In this document: positions 8,743 through 47,121 of the stretch, piece after piece
Layout: the number at the start of each line of letters is the position of its first letter
Position numbering within the stretch: position 1 is the stretch's first letter
Virus record (IMG/VR): IMGVR_UViG_3300008017_000012
Reading direction: 5' to 3' (one strand)
DNA length: 64,000 bases
Source: a virus
The notes under the pieces: generated by a model
Seen by the model: the letters and a program-made list of their open reading frames with translations, nothing else
What the model was told of the DNA's origin: nothing
The model's database searches: none
Program-made: the position numbers and the translations under genes

Positions 8743-9357
8743 ATGAACAAATTAAATTTTTTAGAAATTCTTGAAGAAACCTTTTCTTTGAAAGATGTAG
8801 ATGAAGATAATATTTATTTAAATGAAGATGAAGATGAAACAGAAGATGATGAATTAGAAAATGACGATGATGAAACAGAAGAAGATGATGAAGATCTTTT
8901 TCATCAAGGAACAGAAGATTATAGTGCGGATGATTTTCGTGAAATTATTGACTATGTAAAAGATTTAATTGATCTTGAAGACGATAATGAAATTAACAAT
9001 TCTGTTGATGAAATTGGATTAGCTTTACTTTATGATTATGCTGATGTAATGCCACAAACTTTAATTAATCAAATGGTTGAAGATTTAAAAGAAATTTTTG
9101 AAATTGAAGATGAAATGATGGAATCTTTAGTTACAGAAGGATTTGTTAAAAAGAAAAAAGGTGTATTAGCTAGGAAAAAATCCATAAAAGCAGCTAAAAT
9201 TTATAAAGCTAAAAAAGCTAAAATTAAGTTACGTGCTTCAAAATGGCGTAGATCTGCAAGAGGCAAAAAAGTTATTTCTATACATAAAAAACTCCAAAAA
9301 AGACTAGGTAAAAGAAAAGGGATGAGACTTGTTTCTAATTTACCAAATGAAAAATAA
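8743..9357 (+). CDS. Acidic N-terminal / basic C-terminal late protein, prohead-core-like
   Basis: TATAAATA late promoter at 8700-8707; D/E-rich tract then K/R-rich tract, as in T4-like prohead core proteins (inference). Confidence 0.55.
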   Translation: MNKLNFLEILEETFSLKDVDEDNIYLNEDEDETEDDELENDDDETEEDDEDLFHQGTEDYSADDFREIIDYVKDLIDLEDDNEINNSVDEIGLALLYDYADVMPQTLINQMVEDLKEIFEIEDEMMESLVTEGFVKKKKGVLARKKSIKAAKIYKAKKAKIKLRASKWRRSARGKKVISIHKKLQKRLGKRKGMRLVSNLPNEK

Positions 9358-9376
9358 TTTTTAAATTTTTAAACTA

Positions 9377-9414
9377 ATAAAGGTTCTTAATTAAAAAATA
9401 CTAAGAACCTTTAT
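9377..9414 (+). terminator. Intrinsic terminator
   Basis: ATAAAGGTTCTTA / TAAGAACCTTTAT inverted repeat plus T run. Confidence 0.7.
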
Positions 9415-9482
9415 TTTTAAGTAAAAGATTTATTAAAAAATACTAAATAAAAATAAACAACATTTATTAAAGGAGAAAAACA

Positions 9483-9767
9483 ATGAGTACATTTGAAAAA
9501 TATCTTAAAGAAGCAAAAATGACTAAATCTGTTTTAAACAGAGCATTAATGGCAGTTGATGACACACAAGATCCAAATGCTTTAAAACATGAAGTTACAA
9601 ATTTTTATTCTGACCTCACAACTAAAACAGCTGAATTAAAAAAACTTTTTACCAAAGCTAAAAGTAAACCTAATCTTCCTGAAGTTCAGTTATTTATTGT
9701 AGCTTTTAGAAAACTTGAAGAAATTATTATGGGTAACACCAAAGATGATGTTGAGGAAGAAAATTAA
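9483..9767 (+). CDS. Putative internal head protein (MSTFEKYLKEA tag)
   Basis: AGGAG RBS; tag variant. Confidence 0.6.
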   Translation: MSTFEKYLKEAKMTKSVLNRALMAVDDTQDPNALKHEVTNFYSDLTTKTAELKKLFTKAKSKPNLPEVQLFIVAFRKLEEIIMGNTKDDVEEEN

Positions 9768-9772
9768 GTTTA

Positions 9773-10099
9773 ATGACTTCTAATATTGAAATTAAATTGG
9801 CACTTTGTTACAAAGTACCAAGAACTACTTCTTTTATTAATAAAGATATTTTAATATTTAAAAAAATTAATAGTTCTTTTCAAAAATTAGATAGAACTAA
9901 TAATGATATATATATATTAGAAATTTTTAATTTATTAAAAATATTAGATAATATTTTTGATATGCATAAATTATATTTAATATTATGTGAGTATATAGAT
10001 ATTGATTATCATAATACCTTAGCATTTTTAATAAATGAAATAGAAAAAGATAAAACTGATTATATCATAAAAAAATTAAAAGAATTAGTCAAGGAATAA
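9773..10099 (+). CDS. Hypothetical protein
   Basis: ORF within the late cluster. Confidence 0.55.
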   Translation: MTSNIEIKLALCYKVPRTTSFINKDILIFKKINSSFQKLDRTNNDIYILEIFNLLKILDNIFDMHKLYLILCEYIDIDYHNTLAFLINEIEKDKTDYIIKKLKELVKE

Positions 10100-11336: not shown

Positions 11337-12104
11337 ATGTCTGTTCCCTATGTAAAATCTATAAATGAATTAAAACAATTTATACTTCGTCATTTAGGGT
11401 CACCAGTTGTTGAAATAGAAATTACTGATGATCAATTAACAGATTGTATAACAGAAACTATTGATGAATATTTACCAGTAGCATATTCTGGTGTTGTAGA
11501 AAGACATATACCTATAACTTTACTACCTGGGTATAATGAATATATTCTTCCTTATTCTGTTTTTGCTGTAACAGGAATTCATTCAGTAGATATGCAGGGA
11601 ATAGGTAATTCTGTACCTTCTAATCTTTTTTCAATTAATAACTTTATTGCAGCAGATTTATATAAACCCGGTACAGCTAAAATTGATCTTATTGGATATG
11701 AAGCAATTAATGAAATGATTTCAACAATGAATCTTATGTTTTCAAGAAAAATTTCTTATGACTTCAATAGTATCTCTAAAGTTCTTCATCTTTTTGCAGA
11801 AAATAATGGTGAAAATATTATCATTCAATGTTTCAAAAAATTAGATATTGAAGGAACACCAGTTTCAGGTGGTAAATATGCTGAAGAAAATATTTATAAT
11901 GAACGTTGGATTAGAGATATGGCTGTTGCTAAATCTCAGCTTCAATGGGGTAAAAATATTTTAAAATATTCTGGGTCTATACTCCCAAATGGTGGTACTT
12001 TAAATGGTGATTTTATATATAATGAAGCAAAAGAAGCTATTGATAAATTAATGGTTAGATTACAAGAAGAATATACCTTACCAATTGATTTTATGACAGG
12101 ATAA
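11337..12104 (+). CDS. 13: Neck protein (T4 gp13-like)
   Basis: LKQFILRHLGSPVVEIEITDDQL...WIRDMAVA...QWGKNILKY...LPNGGTLNG. Confidence 0.9.
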   Translation: MSVPYVKSINELKQFILRHLGSPVVEIEITDDQLTDCITETIDEYLPVAYSGVVERHIPITLLPGYNEYILPYSVFAVTGIHSVDMQGIGNSVPSNLFSINNFIAADLYKPGTAKIDLIGYEAINEMISTMNLMFSRKISYDFNSISKVLHLFAENNGENIIIQCFKKLDIEGTPVSGGKYAEENIYNERWIRDMAVAKSQLQWGKNILKYSGSILPNGGTLNGDFIYNEAKEAIDKLMVRLQEEYTLPIDFMTG

Positions 12105-12118
12105 TTTACTAAAAAATT

Positions 12119-12334
12119 ATGACAACAAATATTTATCCATTACAAGTAACTTTAGATAATATTTTAACAATAAATTCTAATGAAGATTCTATTGTTATTC
12201 CATATCATCAAAATATAATTAGTCATGAAATTATAGAACAAAATTCATTAGAACCATTAATACCAGTTGGTGAAAATACTGAAAAATTTTCACCAACTAT
12301 TATTTTTGGTAATGTAATTATAATTAATTCATAA
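12119..12334 (+). CDS. Hypothetical protein
   Basis: ORF between gp13 and gp14. Confidence 0.5.
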   Translation: MTTNIYPLQVTLDNILTINSNEDSIVIPYHQNIISHEIIEQNSLEPLIPVGENTEKFSPTIIFGNVIIINS

Positions 12335-16457: not shown

Positions 16458-16542
16458 TTTTCATTTAAAAAATATTATAATTTAATTAAGAACTCTTATG
16501 ACTATAAATAGTTATAAGAGTTTTTTAATTAAGGAAATAAAT

Positions 16543-19353
16543 ATGTTAGAAGATTTAACAACAGATATAAATGGAAAAGAATTAGCTTTTAAAGGTGATT
16601 CCTCATTAAAACAATGTGGTGCAAAATTAGCATTTACAAAAGAACATACAGAAGAATTTCTAAAATGTTCTAGTGATTGGAAATATTTTATAGAAAAGTA
16701 TCATCATATTATCTCTCTTGATGATGGAATCACTAAAATAAAATTAAGACCATATCAATTAAAACTTATTGAAAATTATATAAGCCATAGATTTAATATA
16801 GTATTAGCTTCAAGACAATGTGGTAAAACAGAGTCTTATGTAGGCTTCATTCTGCATTATATATTATTTAATGAAAATAAATCCGTTGCAATTCTAGCAA
16901 ACAAATTAAAAACAACAAAAGGAATTTTACAAAAAGTCAAACAAAGTTATTCTCTATTACCTAAATTTATTCAACAAGGGGTAAAAACATGGAATAAAAC
17001 AGAAATTGTATTAGAAAATGGATGCAGTGTTTTTGCATCAGCCACCACTGGTTCATCTATTCGTTCTGGTAGTGCAAATATTGTAATAATTGACGAATGT
17101 GCATTTATACAGTCTAATACTTGGACAGATTTTTATGAATCTACCTATCCTACAATTTCATCATCAAAAGAATCAAAAGTAATAATGGTGTCATGTGTTA
17201 TTAAAGATACTTTTGTTTTTAGTGATAAAGGTTTAACTCAGATAAAAAATTTAATTAACCCAAACAAAAATAAAGGTTATGAGGTAGAAAAATATGTTAT
17301 AAGAGGTAAAGATAAATTAAGAACTGGTAATATTATGTATAATAATGGTTTAGCTAAAACTAAAATATTAAATACAAGTTTTGGTGAATTAGAATGTTCT
17401 TTATCTCATAAATTATGGTCTTGTGTTAATGGTATATATGGATGGCATAAAGCTGATGAGATAAAAGTAAATGATTTTATTTCTTTAGAATATAATATGA
17501 ATATTTTTGGTAATAATGATGTTATAAATTTTAATCCTCTCATATCTTCTAATAGAATTAAAAATACATTTAAATGTGAAAAAATAGATAAAGATATTGC
17601 TTATTTCTTAGGATTATTTATTTCTAAAGGATATTGTGAAAAAATATTTGCTAAAAATGGAAAATTAAAAGATTCTAAAATTGTTATAACTTCTGAGGAT
17701 TCTCTTGAAACAATTTTAAATAAATTAAATTTAACATTTTCATGTAGAGATGAAATTCATTATATTATTAATTCTACTCAATTAATGTTATTTTTTGAAT
17801 TTTTAGGATTTGATTTTAATAAAAAAGAAAATGAAAAATTAATCCCTGATAGATTATTACAAATGAGTAAAGAAAATATAATAGCTTTGTTACAAGGAAT
17901 ATTTGATGGTAATGGAGATTCTAAAATTGTCAATGGAACAGTAAGTTATACATCAGAATCAAAAACATTAGTTTATCAAGTCAAAATGTTATTATTAAAT
18001 TTAGGATTATTAACAGATATTAAAAAAAATATAACACTATCAAATGATAAAGTTCATTCAACTGATTATATTGCAAGCATGAATACATATTATTCAAAAA
18101 TTTATTATGATTTAATTGGATTTAGAATTGAAAGAAAACAAATTAAAAGAGATAATTTAAAAAAATCTAATGGATCTAAAGATTTATTTGATTTAATTCC
18201 TTATGCAAAAAAAATATTAAAATTAAAAAACCCTAAAGAAAACATAAAGTGGTTTAGTGTTAATGAAATTTCATATTCAGAAAATGAAGTTTATGATTTT
18301 TCATTACCAGATGATGATAAAGATGAATGGTGTCATTCTGTCTTATATAATGGTTATATAGGTCATCAAACACCAAATGGGATGAATCATTTCTATAAAT
18401 TTTGGGAAGATTCTATTAATAAAAAAAATGTTTATAAAAATACTAGAGTTGATTGGTGGGAAGTTCCTGGTAGAGATGAAAAATGGAAAGAAGAAACAAT
18501 AGCAAATACTTCAGTTGTTTCTTTTGCTCAAGAATTTGGTAATGATTTTTGTGGTAGTGTAGCAACACTTATTGATCCTTTAAAATTAAAAGAAGTTAAA
18601 TTTTCACCTTCATTAGAAGTTTCAAATATTCATAATAGAATATCAGAAGAATATCATCGTTTTATAAAAATTTATAAAGAACCAATTAAAGGGCATATTT
18701 ATTCAATAGGAGTAGATTCATGTAAAATGACAGAAGAAAATTCAGGTGATGCGCTTGGTATGCAAGTCATAGATATAACAAAATTTCCTTATGAACAAGT
18801 AGCAACGTTTTTTGCAAAAGAAGGGTTCAATTATTTATTTGCACCAGAAATTGCAGTATCATTAGGTAATTATTATAATAGTGCATATATGTTTGTTGAA
18901 AATAATGAAGTAGGTCAAGAAGTAGCTAATGCAATTCATTTTGATTATGAATATGAAAACATATATTTTGAAAAAGGTAATACAGCTGGTTATAGAACTA
19001 CAAAAAGAACAAAAAGATTAGGTTGTACTAATTTAAAATTATTAATAGAAAAAAATAAAATTATTTTAAATGATTTTGATACAATTTCTCAATTATCAAC
19101 TTTTATAAAAGTAAAAAATTCTTTTAAAGCAGAAAATAGTTATCAAGATGATTTAGTCATGGCATTAATCTCAGCAATATTTTTTATGATAAATAAAGAT
19201 TTAGATATAGGTGAATTAGAAGATACACAAACAATGTTATCTATTTTAAAAAATGAAAAAGAAGAAATTGAAGAAACCCCTACTTTTGGTGTTTTGCCAA
19301 GTGATGAATATGAAGAACATTCTCAAATTGATATAGATGGGTTCTCTTGGTAA
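16543..19353 (+). CDS. 17: Terminase large subunit (T4 gp17-like) containing an intein
   Basis: SRQCGKT Walker A, IIDECAF Walker B, STPNG split by the intein, DDLVMAL nuclease motif; start moved to the RBS-supported ATG 16543. Confidence 0.93.
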   Translation: MLEDLTTDINGKELAFKGDSSLKQCGAKLAFTKEHTEEFLKCSSDWKYFIEKYHHIISLDDGITKIKLRPYQLKLIENYISHRFNIVLASRQCGKTESYVGFILHYILFNENKSVAILANKLKTTKGILQKVKQSYSLLPKFIQQGVKTWNKTEIVLENGCSVFASATTGSSIRSGSANIVIIDECAFIQSNTWTDFYESTYPTISSSKESKVIMVSCVIKDTFVFSDKGLTQIKNLINPNKNKGYEVEKYVIRGKDKLRTGNIMYNNGLAKTKILNTSFGELECSLSHKLWSCVNGIYGWHKADEIKVNDFISLEYNMNIFGNNDVINFNPLISSNRIKNTFKCEKIDKDIAYFLGLFISKGYCEKIFAKNGKLKDSKIVITSEDSLETILNKLNLTFSCRDEIHYIINSTQLMLFFEFLGFDFNKKENEKLIPDRLLQMSKENIIALLQGIFDGNGDSKIVNGTVSYTSESKTLVYQVKMLLLNLGLLTDIKKNITLSNDKVHSTDYIASMNTYYSKIYYDLIGFRIERKQIKRDNLKKSNGSKDLFDLIPYAKKILKLKNPKENIKWFSVNEISYSENEVYDFSLPDDDKDEWCHSVLYNGYIGHQTPNGMNHFYKFWEDSINKKNVYKNTRVDWWEVPGRDEKWKEETIANTSVVSFAQEFGNDFCGSVATLIDPLKLKEVKFSPSLEVSNIHNRISEEYHRFIKIYKEPIKGHIYSIGVDSCKMTEENSGDALGMQVIDITKFPYEQVATFFAKEGFNYLFAPEIAVSLGNYYNSAYMFVENNEVGQEVANAIHFDYEYENIYFEKGNTAGYRTTKRTKRLGCTNLKLLIEKNKIILNDFDTISQLSTFIKVKNSFKAENSYQDDLVMALISAIFFMINKDLDIGELEDTQTMLSILKNEKEEIEETPTFGVLPSDEYEEHSQIDIDGFSW
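17194..18369 (+). mobile_element. Intein (392 aa) in gp17, Cys start, His-Gln end, +1 Thr, degenerate LAGLIDADG domain
   Basis: MVS|CVIKDTFV...YNGYIGHQ|TPNG; blocks YFLGLFISKG and LLQGIFDGNG. Confidence 0.9.
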
Positions 19354-22024: not shown

Positions 22025-22041
22025 AAAGTATAAAAAATACT

Positions 22042-22088
22042 AAAAAAGAAAAGGGACAATAGTTTTTTCTATTGTCCCTTTTCTTTTT
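22042..22088. terminator. Bidirectional intrinsic terminator
   Basis: AAAAGAAAAGGGACAATAG / CTATTGTCCCTTTTCTTTT perfect inverted repeat between convergent genes. Confidence 0.85.
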
Positions 22089-22135
22089 CAAGAATAAAGA
22101 CTTTGTTACCAAAATCCCATTCAGTTAATGTTTTA

Positions 22136-23287
22136 TCAAAATTCTTTAATTTTGCAACGTGTAAGAACCGTTTGATTTGTTCCATTATAATCTTTATGTT
22201 CTTTAATAGTTCCTTTAACTTTATAAGTCATTCCTTCTATAATATCAATATATTTAGAAGTAATCCAAACAAAAGTGTTTCCTTTTTCATCATTAAAAAT
22301 ATCAATGAAACTTGTTCCATAATAACTCTGAAAAGAAATACCTTTTACATAGGTTAATTCCATTTCAATTTTTTGACCAATTGTTCCAACAAATTCATTT
22401 GATTTGTTTTCTTTTTCTTTTGTAATTTCCATAGCTTTTTTATAAGCAACTATCATTGAACAAACATAACCAAACCCTTTAGCATGGGAATATCCGCAAC
22501 TTGCAAATTTTTTAAGATTTATCAAATATTCATTAGTTGGTTCTACATTCACAAAATATTCAACTACTTTTGAAACATATTCTGAATCTTCTTTATTAAA
22601 GGGAAGAGTAAAATCCCTGTTTTTGTTAAACATGAATTCTTTTACTGTATCAGCAGTTGAAGTTTTAAATTCATCATAAGCAACTGAGCCAGAAACCCAA
22701 CCATATTTTTTGATAGCTGCAAGTGTTAATTCAAGTACATTTTGAATTGGATATAATGCTTGACCAAAACTATATTCTGAAAAATCTTCATTATCTTTAA
22801 GCTCATCAATTTCTTTCAGCATACTTGCATACCAAATTAATGATTCTGCTGTTTTACCTCCGAGAAACATTTTCAAACAAGCTGAACCAATTGATTTATA
22901 TTCAAGTGTTTCAACATTTTGTATAATATAATTTACTTTACGTTCCCTTTTATGCCCACAATGATCACAAATATTATCATGATAATAATATTTTTCTGGT
23001 AGAACTTCAGAAGGAACTGTATTTAATATTGACCCAATACCTTCAATAAATTCAATTTTTGAAATTAATTTCCATCCTGAAAATTTTGGGAATTTTCCAG
23101 AAATGTTAACTTCTGAAAATTCAACATAAAAAGGATATAATATATTATCTTCATTTTTTTCTAATTTAGTATTTCCTGTTAATTCAAACTCAAACCCATC
23201 AAGACCATATTTTTTTGCTTTTTTATTTGCCTTTTCAACAAAATCTTTAATTTTAGAAATATTTTCTGTTGGGATAAAAGCAATCAT
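22136..23287 (-). CDS. Early hypothetical protein with probable C-terminal OB fold
   Basis: GGAGAG RBS before ATG 23287; CDHC motif; C-terminal FVGTIGQK...GTIKEHKDYNGTNQTVLTRCK. Confidence 0.7.
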   Translation of the reverse strand: MIAFIPTENISKIKDFVEKANKKAKKYGLDGFEFELTGNTKLEKNEDNILYPFYVEFSEVNISGKFPKFSGWKLISKIEFIEGIGSILNTVPSEVLPEKYYYHDNICDHCGHKRERKVNYIIQNVETLEYKSIGSACLKMFLGGKTAESLIWYASMLKEIDELKDNEDFSEYSFGQALYPIQNVLELTLAAIKKYGWVSGSVAYDEFKTSTADTVKEFMFNKNRDFTLPFNKEDSEYVSKVVEYFVNVEPTNEYLINLKKFASCGYSHAKGFGYVCSMIVAYKKAMEITKEKENKSNEFVGTIGQKIEMELTYVKGISFQSYYGTSFIDIFNDEKGNTFVWITSKYIDIIEGMTYKVKGTIKEHKDYNGTNQTVLTRCKIKEF

Positions 23288-23352
23288 TGTCTCTCCTTGA
23301 AAGTTTTTGTTAACTACAAAAATACAGTAACATTTATATTTCAAGTTGTCAA
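23288..23352 (-). promoter_or_regulatory. Early promoter, divergent member of the repeated cassette
   Basis: TTGACA (23352-23347), 17 nt, TACTGT, then ATTTTTGTAGTTAAC resembling the ATATTTGTGGTTAAC leader. Confidence 0.7.
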
Positions 23353-23399
23353 CTATATATTTTTATTATTTCAGATTGACAATAGATTTTTATTAGGTT

Positions 23400-23943
23400 T
23401 GGTTTTTAGAGAAATGCAGATACAGAAAGGCACCTTTCTATCCGTTGATTCTTGGCGATAACCAAAAATACTGTATTTAAGCGAATTGAAACTCTCAACA
23501 GTCGAATATACTAGGGTTGACCTTGGCTTTTCGCCAGTTTTTCTTATATGATTCTATATGAATCAATTTCAAAAAACGCCACTAATTGCATCGTATTCTT
23601 AAAAAGCAAGAGATACTTATCTTTGGGTTAGTGGTTCCGTTGTGGAATTACCTATCCACATACCATGTGCTGCGACAATTCAACCAAAGACACAAGGTAC
23701 TGATTCGGTCACCTCTTTCGAGGAATCAACGTCAATAGTTGTCAGGTGCCGACAGAGCTATCACTTTTTATTTCATCTTCTACAAGGTTGGAAGACTCAA
23801 CAGAAAAAAATAATCACATATAAGAATAGCCATTTATATTCATCCTCTTTAAAATAAAAGAGGCGTTCTACTTATAAAAAGTAGAAACCAACGCTCACCA
23901 CTCACAGCGTCCTATTACTAGATTTGTTTTATATGTGATTATC
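23400..23943 (-). ncRNA. Putative large structured non-coding RNA (~540 nt), family not recognised
   Basis: GC-richer than the flanks, no credible ORF, many helices including a 14-bp 5' stem, a GAAA tetraloop and long-range complementarities; minus-strand TATAAATA at 23956-23949. Confidence 0.65.
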
Positions 23944-23983
23944 AATGTTATTTATAAAAATAATTTTTAATATAAATAACATT
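23944..23983. promoter_or_regulatory. Back-to-back T4 late promoters forming an inverted repeat
   Basis: AATGTTATTTATA...TATAAATAACATT; TATAAATA on - (23949-23956) and + (23971-23978). Confidence 0.8.
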
Positions 23984-24018
23984 AAGATTCAATATAACAT
24001 AAAAAAGAGGAATTGTCA

Positions 24019-24234
24019 ATGAATAAAATTTATGATTACTGGAAAATGTTATCAAAAGATTCTAATAAATCATTAGATAAAGTTGAAACAGCATGGAGAC
24101 AAACTGTTGATGAACTTTCAAAAGAAGGAATAAAACCAACAGATAAAAAATATAATTCTGAACTCATTTTAAGAACTAAAAAGAAAGTTATGAAAGAAAG
24201 TAAACTTCAACAATATCTTAATGAACTTTTATGA
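24019..24234 (+). CDS. Small late hypothetical protein
   Basis: GAGG RBS; follows the late promoter. Confidence 0.65.
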   Translation: MNKIYDYWKMLSKDSNKSLDKVETAWRQTVDELSKEGIKPTDKKYNSELILRTKKKVMKESKLQQYLNELL

Positions 24235-31847: not shown

Positions 31848-34220
31848 ATGAAAATTAAAACAAAATTTATAAAAGATCTTCAAAATTCTGAGGGGTATAA
31901 TTCTGAAAGCTTTGTTCCTGTCTCAGATGGCGGTGTTACTAAAAAATTAAAAGAATCTGAATTAGCCCCTGTTAGAAGTTTTAATGGCAGAATAGGCGAT
32001 GTAGAATTTACACAAGATGATTTTGATTCAAAATTATCTATCCATACTAACCCATCTGCTAGTGTTGACCCTCATCCACAATATCTAAGAAGTGCTGTTG
32101 CTTTCCCTGTTAAATCTGTTCAAGCTGTTGATAAGTTTGGCGCTATTTCTCCAATTCAATATGGTAATATTTTTCTGAATGTTTCTGATTTTGGCCTAGA
32201 TCAAGTTGATAATACAAGTGATTTGAATAAACCAATTTCTAATAATACTCAAAATGCTCTTGATTTAAAATCTGATATTAATAATAGTCATTTAACAGGT
32301 ACAACTGTTATAGATAATTTAAGTGTTTCAGGTTCTGTGTCAGGTATTGATAAATCTGATGTTGGCCTAGATCAAGTTGATAATACAAGTGATTTGAATA
32401 AACCAATTTCTAATAATACTCAAAATGCTCTTGATTCAAAAGTTAATGCTAATAATAGTCATTTAACAGGTACAACTGTTATAGATAATTTAAGTGTTTC
32501 AGGTTCTGTGTCAGGTATTGATTATAATATGTTAGAAGGGGATATTAATTATATCTCTTTAAATAATGCTCCAACAATACCAGCATTTAAAGAAGGAAAT
32601 AGTTATTGGGATAATGAAAATAAATGTATTTCAACACAATTAACACAAGATGTTACATTACAAAATGGTCAAGAAATTCATGTGTATGTAAGTAATATTT
32701 CAGGAAGTACAATTACTAATGGAACTGTAGTTTATATTGATACACATAATAATGGTTATCCAACAATTCAAAAAACTAATAATACTGAAACAATGGAAAG
32801 TCATGTTCTAGGTGTTGCAACTCAAGATATTCTTAATAATGATCATGGCTATGTAACAGCTTATGGATTTGTACATGATATAGATACTTCTTCTTGTACA
32901 GAAGGACAAATGGCATATTCTGATGAAAATGGAAATTTAATAACCACAAGACCTGTACCACCTGATTACCCTGTTTGTGTTGGTAAAATAATCATTTCTC
33001 ATGCTGTTTCAGGAAGTATTTTTGTTGATCCAGGTGATGCAGCTTCTATAACTTCATTAACAGATATGTTTGCTTCATCAAAAGATCCTACTGGTTGGGT
33101 AGATCCAAATAATTTAATTATTAACTATTCTGCTTCTGGTAGAACTATTTCTTTAACTCATTCTATTCCAGGCAAAAATATTGAATATATGTGGCAGGGT
33201 TTAAAGAAAAATATTGGAACTTCTTGGGTTTCTCCTCAACATCCAGCTACTTTAGATAAACAATATTTTTTATTTTCTTCTGATGGTGTTACTTTTAATT
33301 GGTCAGAAATGTCTTGGGCATTTAGTGATATTATGGTTGCTTTTGTTAATTATGGAACAATTGATAAATATTGTATTCGGGAGACTCATGGTTTGATGCC
33401 TTGGCAAGTACATGAAGAGTTTCATCAAATACATGGCACATATAGAATATCAGGCGGTACTTTATCTAATTATGTTTTATCATCAACAACAGCAGCTAAT
33501 AGAAGACCTTTTGTCACTGAAACACTTATTAAAGACGAAGATTTAAAAACATATAATCCATTACTTAATACTGCTTTATATACAAGAATGCATTTAGAAT
33601 CAACAGGTTTAAATATATTTTCAAAATCAAATAGTGATATTATTGCGTTATCTGGTAATCAACCATATTATAATCAATTTACTGGTGGAACATGGGTACA
33701 AACATTAGTTGCAAATAATGAATATACTACAGTTTGGTTAATTTCTGCACCAATGGCAGCAGATAGTAATTCACAAGCATATAGATATATATGGTTACAA
33801 GGACAATCATCAGGTAGTTTAACTTCGCAAGAAGCTTTATTTCCAAGTGATTTAAATTTAGGATTTTTAGGAGAGTTAACAACAGAGTTTATTTTTATAA
33901 CAAAACTAATTATTAGATATACTTCTAGTAATTGGTTTATAGTATCAGTAAGTGATTTAACAGGCACAAGACAATCAACCACAGGTGTTGGTACATCAGG
34001 AGTTTATTTATCAGCTGTTACAACAGATCTTTCACTTAATGGATTAGGAACATCTGTATCACCTTTATCATTATTAAATTCAGAAGGTGTTGGATTCATA
34101 CCTAATTCAACTGTAATACCAGTTGCTGACCCTGTTGGTGGTGGTTATTTTTATGTTGAAGCTGGAGCTTTAAAATATAGAGGTTCTTCAGGTACAATTA
34201 CTACTATAGCGAATGCATAA
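31848..34220 (+). CDS. Fibre/virion structural protein, 790 aa
   Basis: VGLDQVDNTSDLNKPIS fibre repeats, DPHPQY motif, beta-rich composition. Confidence 0.65.
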   Translation: MKIKTKFIKDLQNSEGYNSESFVPVSDGGVTKKLKESELAPVRSFNGRIGDVEFTQDDFDSKLSIHTNPSASVDPHPQYLRSAVAFPVKSVQAVDKFGAISPIQYGNIFLNVSDFGLDQVDNTSDLNKPISNNTQNALDLKSDINNSHLTGTTVIDNLSVSGSVSGIDKSDVGLDQVDNTSDLNKPISNNTQNALDSKVNANNSHLTGTTVIDNLSVSGSVSGIDYNMLEGDINYISLNNAPTIPAFKEGNSYWDNENKCISTQLTQDVTLQNGQEIHVYVSNISGSTITNGTVVYIDTHNNGYPTIQKTNNTETMESHVLGVATQDILNNDHGYVTAYGFVHDIDTSSCTEGQMAYSDENGNLITTRPVPPDYPVCVGKIIISHAVSGSIFVDPGDAASITSLTDMFASSKDPTGWVDPNNLIINYSASGRTISLTHSIPGKNIEYMWQGLKKNIGTSWVSPQHPATLDKQYFLFSSDGVTFNWSEMSWAFSDIMVAFVNYGTIDKYCIRETHGLMPWQVHEEFHQIHGTYRISGGTLSNYVLSSTTAANRRPFVTETLIKDEDLKTYNPLLNTALYTRMHLESTGLNIFSKSNSDIIALSGNQPYYNQFTGGTWVQTLVANNEYTTVWLISAPMAADSNSQAYRYIWLQGQSSGSLTSQEALFPSDLNLGFLGELTTEFIFITKLIIRYTSSNWFIVSVSDLTGTRQSTTGVGTSGVYLSAVTTDLSLNGLGTSVSPLSLLNSEGVGFIPNSTVIPVADPVGGGYFYVEAGALKYRGSSGTITTIANA
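32191..32522 (+). repeat. Near-perfect tandem duplication, 171-nt (57-aa) period
   Basis: TTGGCCTAGATCAAGTTGATAATAC starts at 32191 and 32362. Confidence 0.9.
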
Positions 34221-34265
34221 TTTTTATAAATAACATAAACTATATATATTAAGAGGAGTTTACTT

Positions 34266-34526
34266 ATGGATTTTAATCAAGTTTTAAAAAAATTAGAAGA
34301 GCAAGAAATTGAAGTTGAATATAATATTCCTTCAGGTAAAGAATCTATTGCTGATAGAGTGTTTTCACCTTTATTGAAACAACAATCTCAAAAAAATAAA
34401 AATAAAATTTCTGCTTCACCTGCATTACAAAAAACTGGGCCTAATAAAGGTAAAAAAATTAAAGTTCGGTATAGAAATGCGCAAGAAAAAGAAGCTTATG
34501 AACGTAAATTAGGAATTGGAGAATAA
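34266..34526 (+). CDS. Hypothetical late protein
   Basis: Late promoter at 34225-34232; GAGGAG RBS. Confidence 0.65.
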   Translation: MDFNQVLKKLEEQEIEVEYNIPSGKESIADRVFSPLLKQQSQKNKNKISASPALQKTGPNKGKKIKVRYRNAQEKEAYERKLGIGE

Positions 34527-35884: not shown

Positions 35885-37834
35885 ATGGCAATTGGCGATT
35901 TAACAGTTGTTGGATCTAATCTAACAGGGATTTCATGTTCAGGAAATTATCATGGTGAATTTACTGGGGATCTTGTAAAACCAGTAAAAAATGAGCAAGT
36001 TCTTCTTGCTGATCTTAAAAATATTATAGGTAATCCAGGTGATACTGTATATATGACAGGAAGAACCTCACCAGGTGATGGAGATGATGGTACTTTCTAC
36101 TGGGATTCTAGTGACTTATCAGCTAAAGTAGCAACTGATACTCTTAGTGATATATATGTTGCTCCGAATATAGATTTGACCGGGGCAAGCGGAGGGTGGG
36201 TGCGGCAGCTCATTAGTGCCACTCAAGCCGAAATGGAAGCAGGCACCGAAACCGCGCTTCGTTCTATGTCGCCACTACTGGTTCGGCAGGCAATAGATGC
36301 TCAGATGCCAAACAATATTATTGGTGCACCTGGGGAAGCAGGTTTTGGTGTTGGCATTGCCCCTGCCTCAGCTGTCCCAGAAGGAATGACGTATCTTGGG
36401 ACGTCATTCCTTCTGGGAGATAATTACGGCAATTACCAGTTTTCTGATGGTTCCATCATGTGCTACGTACCGAAGTTTTACTACCGCATAGCTCATGTCA
36501 GTAATCCAACCTATGCAACCTACGGGGTTAACTCGTGTGATGTTAAAGGGGTCAACACCTTTGCAACTACCGCAGATGCCAACGCCGCAGGCTATGCGCT
36601 GCATCGTGCTTTTATTGACGGCGGTACCGAAAAAGATGGATTTTTTGTTGATAAATATATGTGTAGTAAAAACGCCCTTGGCAGTGGTTTTGTTGCCAGT
36701 TCCCTTCAAAACGGTCTGCCAATTTCAACCAACAATACCCATAACCCAATTGCCGCCCTGACCGCCTGCGCGGACAACTATAATTACGAAGCGATTAATG
36801 CTGCTCATGCCCGTGACGGTATAGATGGGGCAATTAATCCTGATTCGATTTTTTTCTGCAACTCTCGTCAAATTCATGGAGCACTGGCGCTGCTCTCCCT
36901 CGCTCACGGCCAAAAATCCTTAAATACCACAAACTGCGCCTGGTATGATGCTACCTACAATTTCCCCAAAGGTTGTAACAATAACGCCCTGGGGGATGCA
37001 AACGATGCCACTATCGCTTACACCAGTGATGGTTTTGACAACTGCGGGAAGACCGGCAGTGGTACCCCGTTTGCAAAAACCACACACAATGGCCAAGCGT
37101 GCGGCGTAGCTGATTTGAACGGTTTGATGTACGAGGTCAATATTGGTCTAACCTGTATCGCCACTACCAAAACAATAACCGCAATAACGCAAGCCAACCC
37201 CTGTCAGGTTACTGTTGTCGGTCACGGACTGACAACAGGAGACTACGTACTAATTGGTAGCCTTGCTGGCATGACGGAACTTAGAAATAAAATCTATAAG
37301 GTCACGGTTGTTGATGCGAATAACTTTACCTTGTATGGTGTTAACTCAACGGCCTTTTCTGCCTATATCGGCGGGGGTACTGCCATTATAGGTACATTTT
37401 ATCGGGCAGCTGATAGTACAGAGATGCGCAATTTTACCGCAGGCAACACACTGGCAACAGATCATTGGGGGGTCACAGGAGTCACCGCAATGATGACGCC
37501 GTTTGTTCCTGCGTTTGCGGCAACCTACCCTAGCAACAATTCTACTCAGCGTTTTGGTTCATCGGCGGAGCAGGTTATTGCCAGTAATGTTAGCGGAGAC
37601 GCCTGGGAAATGGCGGGGCTGGGATTTCCGCGGCAGACGGCAATCTCCCAAGTAGGCACAAATTTGTTTGGTGTAGATTATTACTATCAATATGTGCGTC
37701 ATGATCTGTGCCCGGCTTCGTCCCACTTTTGGCAAAATTTGACGCTGGCCGGGATCTGGTCGTTCGACTTTACCTCTTACCGGACGACTTCGAGCAACAT
37801 TTTCGGGTTCCGTACCGCCTGTTACCCTGCTTAA
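35885..37834 (+). CDS. Chimeric tail fibre / receptor-binding protein with C-type-lectin (FGE/Mtd-like) C-terminus
   Basis: AT-rich N-terminus with a GDGDDGTFYWD tailspike motif; GC-rich remainder with FFVDKY, GVADLNGLMYE and a terminal ...AGIW...GFR variable-region pattern; late promoter at 35847-35854. Confidence 0.75.
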   Translation: MAIGDLTVVGSNLTGISCSGNYHGEFTGDLVKPVKNEQVLLADLKNIIGNPGDTVYMTGRTSPGDGDDGTFYWDSSDLSAKVATDTLSDIYVAPNIDLTGASGGWVRQLISATQAEMEAGTETALRSMSPLLVRQAIDAQMPNNIIGAPGEAGFGVGIAPASAVPEGMTYLGTSFLLGDNYGNYQFSDGSIMCYVPKFYYRIAHVSNPTYATYGVNSCDVKGVNTFATTADANAAGYALHRAFIDGGTEKDGFFVDKYMCSKNALGSGFVASSLQNGLPISTNNTHNPIAALTACADNYNYEAINAAHARDGIDGAINPDSIFFCNSRQIHGALALLSLAHGQKSLNTTNCAWYDATYNFPKGCNNNALGDANDATIAYTSDGFDNCGKTGSGTPFAKTTHNGQACGVADLNGLMYEVNIGLTCIATTKTITAITQANPCQVTVVGHGLTTGDYVLIGSLAGMTELRNKIYKVTVVDANNFTLYGVNSTAFSAYIGGGTAIIGTFYRAADSTEMRNFTAGNTLATDHWGVTGVTAMMTPFVPAFAATYPSNNSTQRFGSSAEQVIASNVSGDAWEMAGLGFPRQTAISQVGTNLFGVDYYYQYVRHDLCPASSHFWQNLTLAGIWSFDFTSYRTTSSNIFGFRTACYPA

Positions 37835-38409: not shown

Positions 38410-38832
38410 ATGATCTTATATATTAGATTGGCCGGTATCACCCCGGAAACTTACACCGATGAATTAGCACGTACCGCCTTGCACAGTGCCGCGCTGGAGA
38501 TTCAAGGGCTGAATGCCGCAGTGCCGGGCCTTGCGTTTGACCCAATTAAATCAACCCCAGCGACATGGGATGAGGATGGTAACACAGACCTGCTCACCAG
38601 GCCGATTGAGACCTTTTTAGGCAACTGCAACACGCCGCCGAACGCATGGGGAGATGTAGGCGTACAGATTGACAATTACAACTGGCTGGAACTACCGCCG
38701 GGAATCGCGCCCAAAACGTTTTCTATTACCCTTGGTCGACCGATCCGTCAAACCGTTGACGCTGAGGGCAACCCGGTAACGGTGGAGGTTGGCATGATAG
38801 CCGGGGCGACGATTGAGCCGGAGACGTTATGA
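38410..38832 (+). CDS. Hypothetical protein
   Basis: AAGGAG RBS; island codon usage. Confidence 0.65.
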   Translation: MILYIRLAGITPETYTDELARTALHSAALEIQGLNAAVPGLAFDPIKSTPATWDEDGNTDLLTRPIETFLGNCNTPPNAWGDVGVQIDNYNWLELPPGIAPKTFSITLGRPIRQTVDAEGNPVTVEVGMIAGATIEPETL

Positions 38833-39044
38833 GTGACAAGTACAGCCAAAAATGGGTAACGCTCTTTTCCAAAGCGGATAAGTGGGCCATTACCTTAGGG
38901 CAGACAACCTATTACAGCTGCAACGAATTTGCAATCACACCAAGCTGGAGACGGCACGAAGAGGAGCATAAACGCCAGTGGCGTGAGCACGGTTGGCTCT
39001 TTGCGTTGAAATACTTGTGGGAGTTGCGCAAGGGGTTGAAGTAG
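38829..39044 (+). CDS. Small HExxH-like protein, possibly truncated at the island edge
   Basis: WRRHEEEHKRQW...KYLWE; ends exactly where GC content drops. Confidence 0.5.
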   Translation: MSDKYSQKWVTLFSKADKWAITLGQTTYYSCNEFAITPSWRRHEEEHKRQWREHGWLFALKYLWELRKGLK

Positions 39045-45309: not shown

Positions 45310-46656
45310 TTATTTTTTAAGTATTTTTTTCAATTCCCTTAATTCAGTTAGCCATATATCTTGGATTTTTTTATTTTGGATATTAAATAAAAGTTCTTTT
45401 TTAATATCAATAATTTTTTTTAATTCATTAAAAGTTTCTATTGAAAGACTATGAATAGGCATATTAATCAAAAAAGAGAAATCTTCAAAAGAGTCAAAAG
45501 GGAAAGCTTTATTATTTTTAATTTGAGTTTCAATTTGAATTTTAGAATTTTTATTAATAATAATTTTATCGGATAAAATTTCTTTAATAAAAAAATATTT
45601 AGCACCTAAATAGAGAAGTTCTTCTTTTAGTTTTTGAATTTGGTAAAGCTTTCGTTTTTCATAATAAAGAAGTCTAATTTTAATAAAAGCATCAAGAATT
45701 TCAGTATCAGAGGTAAATTCAACAATTTGGTTATTTTCTCCAATACAAGTAAAATTTTCTGTTACTCTTCTAATTAATTTTAATTTATCTAGAATATAAT
45801 CATCATCTTTTTTTGTAAATTCCCTAGAAACTTTCAATTCAAATAAAAATGTATTATCTTCACTTTTATCAGTAAAATCATTTATAACTTTATCTTCTTC
45901 TAATTTTGATAAAATCTTATTATATTTTTCAAGGTCATACCCAACTGGTAATTCTGTAATTGTTATTGTTGTTGTATTTGTTCGTTCAAAGTTACCTATA
46001 ATTTCATACGAGAACCCGTCTAATCGCTTAATGGTGCCCTTAAAATCTTTAAAGTGTGGTAGTAGTTCAGTAGGGGTTGAATGTCTTTTTTTATTAGTTA
46101 ATTTATCTTCTAAAATATCAATTATTTCTAAAACATTACGTGATAATATTTTTTGAGCAAATCCATTACCAATACCTTCATTACCATTAATAAGAATCAT
46201 AGGAACAATAGGAATATAAAATCTTGGCTCAATAATAGTTCCTTCAAATTCTTGTGAAATTAGAATTGATTTATCTAAATCAATAAAAATCTTATCAATA
46301 ATATTATTTTTTTTTGTAAAAATATATCTTGATGCAGCAGAAGATTGAATTGTTCTTGTGCCAAATGATCCTTCAGGTAATAACAAATTTATATTATTAC
46401 TACCACAAAAATTTTGTGCCATTCCTATGACAACACCTTCAAGAGATGTTGCACCATGTATATATTCATTTTCTCTAGCTACATCTGATACAAATATAGA
46501 TACTTTTTCTTCTTTTGTACTTTTACGTTTAGTTATAGAATTTATAACTTTTCTTGCTGATGGCTTTAATCCATCAATATAATTCCCTATACTTCGATAA
46601 GAATCATATATAGCAAAATTAATATATTCTTTATCATAAAAATCTGAAATTTTCAT
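45310..46656 (-). CDS. 52: Type II topoisomerase, GyrA-like subunit (T4 gp52-like)
   Basis: DGLKPSARK, YIHG, G.FGTR, AASRYI (catalytic Tyr), EP.FY.P..P..L.NG..GIG.G. Confidence 0.93.
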   Translation of the reverse strand: MKISDFYDKEYINFAIYDSYRSIGNYIDGLKPSARKVINSITKRKSTKEEKVSIFVSDVARENEYIHGATSLEGVVIGMAQNFCGSNNINLLLPEGSFGTRTIQSSAASRYIFTKKNNIIDKIFIDLDKSILISQEFEGTIIEPRFYIPIVPMILINGNEGIGNGFAQKILSRNVLEIIDILEDKLTNKKRHSTPTELLPHFKDFKGTIKRLDGFSYEIIGNFERTNTTTITITELPVGYDLEKYNKILSKLEEDKVINDFTDKSEDNTFLFELKVSREFTKKDDDYILDKLKLIRRVTENFTCIGENNQIVEFTSDTEILDAFIKIRLLYYEKRKLYQIQKLKEELLYLGAKYFFIKEILSDKIIINKNSKIQIETQIKNNKAFPFDSFEDFSFLINMPIHSLSIETFNELKKIIDIKKELLFNIQNKKIQDIWLTELRELKKILKK

Positions 46657-46794
46657 TTAAAATATCCTTTAATACATTTCATTAGGGGCATAATATTTAT
46701 CTTATCTATTATGATCAAGAATATATTCTTGATTTTAAAAGTTCACTAGAAAATTTCATTCATTAGTATTTTTTTCTATATTATGAAATAAAAT

Positions 46795-47121
46795 TTACTT
46801 TATTTTGAAATCTTTAGATAATTTCTGATATTTAGATATATAATACCAATCTACTTTATCTTGAAACTCACGTATAAATTCTTCGGAGAGTTTTTGATAA
46901 CAGGAAATACGATCCCATTTGACTCTATTAGTAAATTCTCTAATGAAAACTTCTGATAAAGTTTGAAACTTTGAAACAGAAAGCCATTCTACTTTATCTT
47001 GAAACTCACGTATAAATTCTTCGGAGAGTTTCTGATACATACAAATTAAATCCCAATTTACTTTATCGTGATTTTCTCTAATGAAGTTTTCTGACATAGA
47101 TGTTTTGTAATTAAATTTCAT
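46795..47121 (-). CDS. Short or truncated 23-aa-repeat protein (paralogue of 304..1212 lacking the C-terminal domain)
   Basis: About 4 LSEEFIREFQDKVxW repeats; a one-base shift just before the stop would restore FKNKVN. Confidence 0.75.
   Translation of the reverse strand: MKFNYKTSMSENFIRENHDKVNWDLICMYQKLSEEFIREFQDKVEWLSVSKFQTLSEVFIREFTNRVKWDRISCYQKLSEEFIREFQDKVDWYYISKYQKLSKDFKIK

What the first reader, a model, noticed from the sequence alone, without database searches (positions are those of the whole stretch)
23400..23943. Unrecognised ~540-nt multi-domain structured RNA under its own late promoter
Seen on the minus strand: TATAAATA (23956-23949) is followed within a few nt by a perfect 14-bp stem (23929-23942 with 23810-23823). 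That stem encloses three hairpins: ACGCT/AGCGT, TTCTAC/GTAGAA and CCTCTTT/AAAGAGG. After a U run comes a second domain with TCTTC/GAAGA, TGTC-GGCACCT-GACA, CCTC-GAAA-GAGG, TGTGGA/TCCACA, CCACTAA/TTAGTGG, TGATTC/GAATCA, TGGC-GAAAA-GCCA and AGAAAGG/CCTTTCT. Long-range complements include CGTTGATTC/GAATCAACG, GGTTGA/TCAACC, TGGCGA/TCGCCA and loop GGCACCT with distal AGGTGCC, suggesting pseudoknot or kissing contacts. It is much GC-richer than the flanks and has no credible ORF. I recognise no group I/II intron, RNase P or tmRNA signature. Established: large phage ncRNAs of unknown function exist (ROOL, GOLLD). Inference: a late-expressed large RNA, transcribed divergently from the tagged-effector operon, possibly virion-associated or a scaffold/decoy.
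Basis: partly seen in the sequence, partly recalled or inferred. Interest (0 to 1): 0.9.

Follow-up and report, generated by a model that had tools for sequence, protein, structure and literature searches.

The report
Orphan structured-RNA candidate in a phage
A 731-base gene-free, unusually GC-rich stretch of an uncultured T4-like groundwater phage, placed behind phage promoters, folds into two closed stem-loop modules and is most likely an unclassified non-coding RNA, but no relative exists anywhere I could search, so the fold and the RNA itself remain unproven.

Summary
Window 23288-24018 is the longest intergenic gap in the window: 731 nt against 324 for the next. Its core has 35-41% GC, against a median of 18.6% for the other gaps. 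It has no credible ORF under four genetic codes. It folds better than shuffles into two closed modules.

- Module 1 (23942-23810) has a perfect 14-bp closing stem around five hairpins, followed by U7.
- Module 2 (23750-23429) is closed by a 7+5+9-bp interrupted helix.

A TATAAATA box with the same extended context as genuine late promoters of this phage puts the late +1 at the base of module 1. A sigma70-like promoter lies just upstream.

The interpretation cannot be proven here. Rfam gives nothing. No homologue turned up in any of the searches run: phage and plasmid records, IMG/VR, JGI metagenomes, representative prokaryote genomes, or contigs of related phages. Covariation is therefore untestable. 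No RNA run holds the sequence. The folding signal is equally strong on both strands and only moderately unusual against the rest of the genome. The nearest relatives (65-67% sheath identity) lack the segment at the same position.

Verdict: a plausible orphan ncRNA locus (about 0.4, or about 0.55 counting a cis-leader role). The main rival is an acquired or mobile DNA remnant.

The parts
23991..24019 (-). Sigma70-like (early-type) promoter, TTGACA-17-TATATT with TG, firing toward the gap. Its extended -35 (ATTGACAAT) recurs in front of the downstream gene.
   Evidence: 11 of 12 matches; I2 (inverted copy of 23375-23399).
23949..23956 (-). T4-type late promoter box TATAAATA. The predicted +1 is about 23943-23942, at the base of the module 1 stem.
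   Evidence: the context ttttTATAAATAacat matches the box at 34225, which precedes a gene with a Shine-Dalgarno sequence; 17/17 identity to 34220-34236. The position of +1 follows from T4 knowledge (the box spans -13 to -6) and is an inference.
23971..23978 (+). Partner late promoter box for the plus-strand operon starting at 24019 (the operon includes an ART-PolyVal gene). Together with 23949-23956 it forms a 28-nt palindrome centred at 23963/23964.
   Evidence: (I3).
23810..23942 (-). Module 1: a perfect 14-bp closing stem around five hairpins (a multi-way junction), 133 nt.
   Evidence: I5; pairing probabilities 0.84-0.98; MFE -41.5 kcal/mol, z -5.24, 0 of 200 shuffles fold as well.
23803..23809 (-). 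U7 tract directly after the 3' arm of the module 1 stem. This is terminator-like, with a branched 'loop'.
   Evidence: Sequence. The consensus terminator scan did not call it because its loop limit is 8 nt. Termination here is an inference.
23769..23802 (-). Linker hairpin (UGUU/AAUA plus GUCUUC/GAAGAU).
   Evidence: P 0.90-0.95.
23429..23750 (-). Module 2: 322 nt closed by an interrupted helix (GGCACCU/AGGUGCC, CUAUU/GAUAG, CGUUGAUUC/GAAUCAACG). It encloses about nine hairpins, including a C-GAAA-G tetraloop and a GAAAA pentaloop.
   Evidence: MFE -94.5, z -3.81. GC is concentrated in paired positions on the minus strand only (0.21 against 0.13 in shuffles, 7% of shuffles as high).
23325..23385 (-). 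Two tandem sigma70-like promoters (TTGTCA-17-TATATA and TTGACA-17-TACTGT, a repeat unit 30 nt apart) serving the downstream gene. They lie between module 2 and that gene.
   Evidence: Sequence; D5/D6. These are read by eye and are not in the list at its threshold.
22136..23287 (-). Downstream gene on the same strand: a 383-aa protein of phrog_2319 with a C-terminal OB fold and invariant C107/H109/C110/C137.
   Evidence: RecG wedge Z 9.8, RPA domain Z 9.6 over residues 299-383.
22043..22088 (.). Strong bidirectional terminator (20-bp perfect stem). It is the first consensus intrinsic terminator the scan finds downstream of the gap on the minus strand.
   Evidence: I6.

Best explanation
The gap is a non-coding transcription unit on the minus strand that gives structured, trans-acting phage RNA.

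Transcription would enter from a sigma70-like promoter (24019-23991) early in infection, and from a T4-type late promoter (23956-23949) late in infection. The late transcript would start at the foot of module 1. Its 5' end would then be locked in a 14-bp stem, and the stem is followed by U7, so a discrete RNA of about 140 nt is expected. Read-through, or the early transcript, would add module 2, a 322-nt multi-helix junction closed by a 21-bp interrupted helix.

Shown here: the sequence anatomy, the non-coding nature, the GC and length outlier status, folding better than shuffles, the promoter context, and the absence of any known family.

Inferred: that it is transcribed, the strand, the ends, and the fold.

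My guess at function is a stable RNA that binds or sequesters a protein (scaffold or decoy), by analogy with other phage-borne structured RNAs. Nothing here tests that.
For: - It is by far the longest gap of a 92%-coding window: 731 nt against 324 nt for the next.
- Its core has 35-41% GC where intergenic DNA has a median of 18.6%. Long, GC-rich gaps in AT-rich genomes are the property used to find structured ncRNAs (PMC6429828, PMC8632094).
- There is no coding signal. ORFs in the gap score -0.1 to -0.6 per codon with GC3 of 0.28-0.44, against +0.2 to +0.56 and 0.12 for real genes.
- Six-frame Pfam scans give nothing, and alternative codes open no ORF.
- Fold z-scores run from -3.8 to -5.2, with high pairing probabilities.
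- The late box has the extended context of genuine late promoters, but it is the only intergenic one without a Shine-Dalgarno sequence and ATG within 45 nt.
- The predicted +1 coincides with the start of the stem, and a U7 follows the stem.
- Two features favour the minus strand: a GAAA tetraloop closed by C-G and A-rich loops appear only on that strand, and GC is concentrated in the stems of module 2 on that strand only.
- The region is invariant in 22 DNA runs, while nearby coding DNA carries SNPs. This is weak, since only about 1 SNP would be expected.
Against: - There are no homologues, so there is no covariation support at all.
- The excess folding energy over shuffles is the same on both strands (-24.9 against -24.2 kcal/mol). 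Helices are pure Watson-Crick, with G-U pairs only at helix ends. The signal is therefore equally that of DNA inverted repeats.
- Against the genome's own background the fold is only moderately unusual: 300-nt windows rank 6th and 25th of 165.
- The segment is absent at the syntenic place in the closest relatives.
- No consensus terminator follows module 2.
Confidence: 0.4

Rival explanations
1. It is a remnant of acquired or mobile DNA. One or two small non-autonomous elements bounded by terminal inverted repeats, or a decaying piece of foreign higher-GC DNA, landed in a variable region. The 'stems' would be DNA inverted repeats with no RNA function.
For: - Each module is bounded by inverted repeats: 14 of 14 for module 1, and 21 paired bases within 23-28 nt for module 2.
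- The folding signal is strand-symmetric.
- The window holds other GC-rich foreign islands and an IS607/TnpB element (earlier notes; codon score of 38829-39044).
- In the nearest relatives the sheath gene is followed directly by a terminator, a late promoter and the next plus-strand gene. The 383-aa gene and the gap are therefore an insertion or translocation in this phage.
Against: - It is single-copy in 64 kb.
- Five IMG/VR motif scans, one JGI metagenome scan and one scan of 185,579 species' genomes with the closing-helix arm gave only chance hits.
- There is no abutting target-site duplication and no trace of a protein family in six frames.
- A rich set of internal hairpins lies beyond the terminal repeats.
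- No population variant lacks it (no joints).
- In a genome with 12% GC3, a neutral 38% GC stretch should erode unless it is recent.
Confidence: 0.25
2. It is a long structured 5' leader of the downstream 383-aa OB-fold/zinc-motif gene. It would act in cis as a stability element or as an operator on which the nucleic-acid-binding product regulates its own mRNA, as T4 gp32 does through the pseudoknot in its leader.
For: - It lies on the same strand as the gene.
- No consensus terminator lies between module 2 and the gene; the first strong one is at 22088-22043.
- The product has an RPA/RecG-wedge-like OB fold and an invariant Cys/His cluster.
- An AU-rich, unstructured 130 nt separates module 2 from the start codon. 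T4 gene 32 autoregulation is established knowledge, cited from memory.
Against: - The gene has two sigma70-like promoters of its own downstream of module 2 (D5).
- Homologues at 42-45% identity have only 66 and 180 nt upstream and nothing similar to this region.
- U7 after module 1 should stop part of the transcripts.
- 540 nt is far larger than known operators.
- The protein is not shown to be the phage's SSB: no gp32 Pfam match.
Confidence: 0.15
3. It is a DNA-level element: a replication origin or a protein-binding region, in which a promoter plus an AT-rich palindrome and hairpin-prone DNA act as double- or single-stranded DNA.
For: - Back-to-back promoters sit in a 56-bp AT-rich palindrome.
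- It lies between divergent genes.
- Self-complementarity is strand-symmetric.
- T4 origins combine a promoter with an unwinding element (from memory).
Against: - There are no iterons or tandem repeats.
- The GC-rich part is the opposite of an unwinding element.
- GC skew changes here only as expected from the change of gene orientation.
- Nothing ties origin function to a 320-nt closed multi-hairpin domain.
Confidence: 0.06

Closest known systems
ROOL and GOLLD (large ornate RNAs of phages and prophages)
   Same: Both are phage-borne, several hundred nucleotides long, multi-helix and of unknown function. GOLLD rises during lysis (PMC12286853, read). Here a late promoter heads the locus.
   Different: There is no match to the Rfam models even at E up to 10 on short stretches. 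No tRNA island lies nearby. The candidate has two separately closed modules rather than one fold. There is no family, hence no covariation. Oligomerisation is untested.
GC-rich long intergenic regions used for ncRNA discovery (GC-IGR approach)
   Same: The defining signature is the same: an intergenic region that is an outlier in both length and GC in an AT-rich genome (PMC6429828, PMC8632094).
   Different: Those pipelines accept a motif only after finding homologues and covariation. Here none exist, so this would remain a low-ranked singleton there.
T4 gene 32 mRNA leader (translational operator with 5' pseudoknot)
   Same: Structured RNA lies upstream of an AU-rich leader of a gene for an OB-fold, zinc-binding nucleic-acid-binding protein. 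Transcription comes from several promoters, including a late one.
   Different: The T4 operator is tens of nucleotides; this is 540. The gene here has its own promoters downstream of the structure. Homologous genes lack the structure. The protein is not shown to be gp32.
Miniature inverted-repeat elements (MITE-like DNA)
   Same: Both are short, non-coding and bounded by terminal inverted repeats. This one sits in a variable region, in a window that also carries an IS element.
   Different: It is single-copy wherever I could look, and no target duplication is seen.
T4 stable RNAs C and D (small phage RNAs of unknown function; from memory)
   Same: Both are small structured non-coding RNAs in a T4-type phage.
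   Different: The T4 species lie in the tRNA cluster and are processed with the tRNAs. No tRNA genes are present here, and there is no sequence relation by Rfam.

Membership tests
ROOL / GOLLD / OLE / raiA / HEARO and every other Rfam 15 family | Match to the family covariance model | tested here: not met
   No match at gathering score over the whole window. At E up to 10 on 901-, 371- and 231-nt stretches only junk hits appear, at 10-18 bits.
ROOL / GOLLD | Usual context next to tRNA islands in phages or prophages | tested here: not met
   ARAGORN finds no tRNA or tmRNA gene in the 64-kb window.
Group I / group II intron | Ribozyme core model, and interruption of a host gene | tested here: not met
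   No Rfam intron hit. Both flanking genes are complete: the 383-aa protein aligns over 99% of its homologues, and the plus-strand gene starts at 24019.
tmRNA / RNase P RNA | ARAGORN or Rfam model match | tested here: not met
T4-type late transcription unit | TATAAATA box in the context used by the phage's late genes | tested here: met
   identical extended context to the box before the gene at 34266. About 12 boxes stand 25-45 nt before late genes.
T4-type late transcription unit | Transcript that starts about 6 nt after the box late in infection | not testable with these tools
   No RNA run holds the sequence.
Structured ncRNA (general criterion) | Compensatory base changes in homologues | not testable with these tools
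   No homologue in any collection. The only other copies are 100% identical in the gap.
MITE-like mobile element | Terminal inverted repeats | tested here: met
   14/14 for module 1 and 7+5+9 for module 2.
MITE-like mobile element | Multiple dispersed copies, and a target-site duplication | tested here: not met
   Single-copy in the window. The 18-mer of the terminal arm gives 4 chance hits in 185,579 genomes. No abutting duplication in the sequence. The rest of the phage genome and the true host could not be searched.
Intrinsic terminator after module 1 | Stem directly followed by a U run | tested here: inconclusive
   A 14-bp stem is followed by U7, but the 'loop' is a 105-nt branched insert, outside the consensus scan.

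The most novel reading that the evidence does not exclude
A new class of large phage RNA. It would be made up of a late-expressed 140-nt capped-stem module plus a 320-nt closed multi-helix module, be specific to a deep-branching T4-like lineage of groundwater phages, and act as a protein-binding scaffold or decoy (or self-assemble, as ROOL and GOLLD do) during late infection. It sits next to an operon that includes an ADP-ribosyltransferase-like gene.
Probability: 0.25. Interest if true: 0.75.

Novelty: new variant of a known kind. Interest (0 to 1): 0.45.

Why it matters
Large structured RNAs of phages (ROOL, GOLLD) are a current puzzle: their architectures are now solved but their function is not. 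Every known class was found through families. A singleton in a deep-branching T4-like phage (major capsid protein only 25% identical to any cultured phage) would show that such RNAs also arise as lineage-specific inventions. It would also offer a case with unusually clear promoter wiring: early and late promoters, with +1 in a stem. If it is instead a DNA remnant, it marks a recombination hot spot between the sheath gene and the operon downstream that includes the ART-PolyVal gene. Either way the claim is cheap to test in vitro, because the whole unit is under 600 nt.

Tried and rejected
**Homologue searches, all negative**
- blastn against phage records and plasmids.
- nhmmer and blastn against 80 IMG/VR loci anchored on the sheath gene, and one more anchored on the 383-aa gene.
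- Contigs of the two nearest homologues of the 383-aa gene.
- Contigs of the nearest sheath relatives at 59-67% identity.
- Five exact-motif scans of IMG/VR (checked).
- One 19-mer scan of JGI metagenomes.
- One 18-mer scan of GTDB genomes.
- A covariance model of the 194-nt core, run on 38 loci and on five IMG/VR records of related phages, three of them complete. It found only itself.
- The scan's own index has no look-alike.

**Expression**
- No RNA holder is listed among 24 runs.
- Reads laid from four DNA runs are contigs only. They show no variant, no deletion and no joint in the gap.

**Rejected readings**
- Hidden gene: rejected.
- omegaRNA or an end of the IS607 element: rejected, since the only similarity to 39-41.3 kb is in promoter boxes.
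- tRNA pseudogene cluster: rejected.

**Strand from folding energy**
- Rejected as evidence. The 14 kcal/mol advantage of the minus strand equals the difference between the shuffle means of the two strands.

**Not attempted**
- Complex prediction between the RNA and the OB-fold protein, because the tool handles proteins only.

Full report
**Setting**

The window is part of an uncultured T4-like myophage. It carries these core genes:
- gp23-type capsid, gp15, T4-type large terminase with a LAGLIDADG intein, and tail sheath;
- portal, neck and clamp loader;
- topoisomerase II, RNase H, gp41-type helicase and UvsX.

Coding DNA has 27.6% GC with GC3 of 0.12. The capsid protein is only about 25% identical to any cultured phage. 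Twenty-two DNA runs from groundwater, aquifer and hot-spring metagenomes hold the stretch. No listed holder is an RNA run.

**The observation**

The gap runs from the start of the minus-strand 383-aa gene (ATG at 23287) to the start of the plus-strand operon (24019). It is 731 nt long. The next longest intergenic gap in the window is 324 nt, and coding density is 92%. The median GC of the 37 gaps is 18.6%, while 23400-23900 has 35-41%.

The ORFs inside the gap have no native codon bias: scores of -0.1 to -0.6 per codon and GC3 of 0.28-0.44. Reading the stops through gives no Pfam trace in any frame, and recoding TGA, TAG or TAA opens nothing long.

**Anatomy on the minus strand**

- A sigma70-like promoter (TTGACA-17-TATATT, TG-extended) lies at 24019-23991.
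- Two TATAAATA boxes stand back to back, at 23956-23949 on minus and 23971-23978 on plus, inside a 28+28-nt palindrome.
- The minus box has the context ttttTATAAATAacat. This matches the box 33 nt before the Shine-Dalgarno sequence and ATG of the gene at 34266.
- About a dozen such boxes stand 25-45 nt before late genes. The minus box here is the only intergenic one with no gene behind it.
- With the T4 rule (the box spans -13 to -6; from memory), the late +1 falls at 23943-23942, which is the first base of the 14-bp stem.
- Module 1 (23942-23810) is that stem around five hairpins. Its z-score is -5.24, and U7 follows it.
- After a linker hairpin comes module 2 (23750-23429). It is closed by GGCACCU/AGGUGCC, CUAUU/GAUAG and CGUUGAUUC/GAAUCAACG, and holds about nine hairpins with pairing probabilities mostly 0.7-0.99.
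- Two tandem sigma70-like promoters follow at 23385-23325, then the 383-aa gene.
- The first strong terminator is at 22088-22043.

**How strong is the fold?**

Against dinucleotide shuffles the fold is significant: z from -3.8 to -5.2, and no shuffle folds as well. Three cautions apply.

- The plus strand does as well (z -4.3 and -3.7). The 14 kcal/mol advantage of the minus strand equals the difference between the shuffle means of the two strands. Energy therefore says nothing about the strand, or about RNA against DNA.
- The helices are pure Watson-Crick, with G-U pairs only at their ends.
- In a scan of 165 300-nt windows of this genome, the two windows covering the region rank 6th and 25th, and z of -3.8 is about the 5th percentile.

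Small hints favour the minus strand. A C-GAAA-G tetraloop and a GAAAA loop become UUUC-type loops on the other strand. In module 2, GC is concentrated in paired positions on the minus strand only (0.21 against 0.13 +/- 0.06 in shuffles, while the plus strand shows 0.07).

**Known families**

Rfam 15 gives nothing at gathering thresholds over the window. At E up to 10 on short stretches it gives only junk. ARAGORN finds no tRNA or tmRNA. The region is therefore not ROOL, GOLLD, OLE, an intron, RNase P, a riboswitch or a CRISPR-repeat family in Rfam.

**Homologues**

All the homologue searches listed under Tried and rejected found nothing beyond the sequence itself. The other copies (L084-L086, and contigs of four runs) are identical in the gap; their few SNPs lie in coding DNA.

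**Comparative context**

The big protein collection holds sheath proteins at 67% and 65% identity. In both contigs the sheath gene is followed, after about 100 nt holding a terminator hairpin and a TATAAATA box, by a plus-strand gene.

In a contig from the same run (L083), the homologue of the 383-aa gene lies in a cluster with UvsX, an RNA ligase and RlaP, with only 180 nt upstream. So the block of 383-aa gene plus gap is not at this place in the nearest relatives. The structured stretch does not travel with that gene either. It is a lineage-specific addition in a variable region.

**The neighbouring protein**

The 383-aa product (phrog_2319) folds with pLDDT 83. Residues 299-383 form an OB fold, with best matches to the RecG wedge (Z 9.8) and an RPA domain (Z 9.6). 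The family keeps C107, H109, C110 and C137. A nucleic-acid-binding protein downstream of a structured leader recalls T4 gene 32 autoregulation. However, the gene's own promoters and the bare upstream regions of its homologues weaken that reading.

**Weighing**

| Reading | Weight |
|---|---|
| Trans-acting RNA locus | 0.40 |
| Acquired or mobile DNA remnant | 0.25 |
| Cis-acting leader | 0.15 |
| DNA-level element such as an origin | 0.06 |
| Nothing functional | remainder |

For an RNA:
- the length and GC outlier status of a non-coding gap in a compact, very AT-rich genome, which is the criterion of the GC-IGR discovery pipelines (PMC6429828, PMC8632094);
- a late promoter with nothing to translate behind it;
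- a +1 in a stem;
- a stem followed by U7;
- two well-defined closed modules.

Against an RNA, or neutral:
- strand-symmetric self-complementarity;
- inverted repeats bounding each module, as in small mobile elements;
- other foreign GC-rich islands and an IS607 in the window;
- absence from relatives.

**Novelty and interest**

If real, this is a new RNA class of the already known kind 'large structured phage RNA of unknown function'. It has clear early and late promoter wiring and a two-module build.

Noticed in passing
window 22025-24018 vs L182:12563-12677, L184:5504-5600: In the nearest relatives (sheath 65-67% identical) the sheath gene is followed directly by a terminator hairpin, a TATAAATA box and a plus-strand gene. 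In L184 that gene starts MKTFIQFVNE, like the tag at the head of the window's downstream operon. The 383-aa gene and the gap are therefore an insertion or translocation in this phage.
   Followed up: partly
window 23780-23833 (-): A 17-codon hydrophobic ORF (MAILICDYFFLLSLPTL) has GAGG 9 nt upstream. That GAGG is buried in the hairpin 23863-23844, and the ORF runs through the U7 tract. It is probably a by-product of the U-rich sequence, although the layout recalls type I toxin mRNAs.
   Followed up: no
window 23866-23886 (-): The hairpin UUUCUACUU-UUUAU-AAGUAGAA shares UUUCUAC...GUAGA with the Cas12a repeat handle as I remember it. This could be a chance 7-mer. An RNA anti-CRISPR mimic cannot be tested without the host.
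   Followed up: no
window 16498-19353 (+): The large terminase (951 aa) is interrupted by a LAGLIDADG domain at residues 461-524, between its ATPase and nuclease halves. This is probably an intein. The relatives' terminases have 566 and 458 aa.
   Followed up: partly
window 22136-23287 (-): phrog_2319 ('unknown function') is a three-part protein: a beta-rich N-terminal domain with an invariant C-x-H-C...C cluster, a helical middle and a C-terminal OB fold. In a relative it sits in a UvsX / RNA ligase / RlaP cluster. It may be an ssDNA- or RNA-binding replication or repair factor.
   Followed up: partly
window 23325-23385 and 23991-24019 (-): Three minus-strand sigma70-like promoters share an extended -35 (ATTGNCAA). 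Two of them form a 30-nt tandem repeat in front of the 383-aa gene.
   Followed up: no
window 9301-9900, 12001-12300, 36301-36600, 46501-46800: These 300-nt windows fold further below their shuffles than the finding itself (z -4.2 to -6.7 with 12 shuffles). Some hold perfect 17-25-bp inverted repeats (12253-12310, 36375-36418, 46621-46727).
   Followed up: no
window about 25747: Several independent assemblies break here (L085, and contigs of runs X2 and X19). The breaks are consistent with a real repeat.
   Followed up: no
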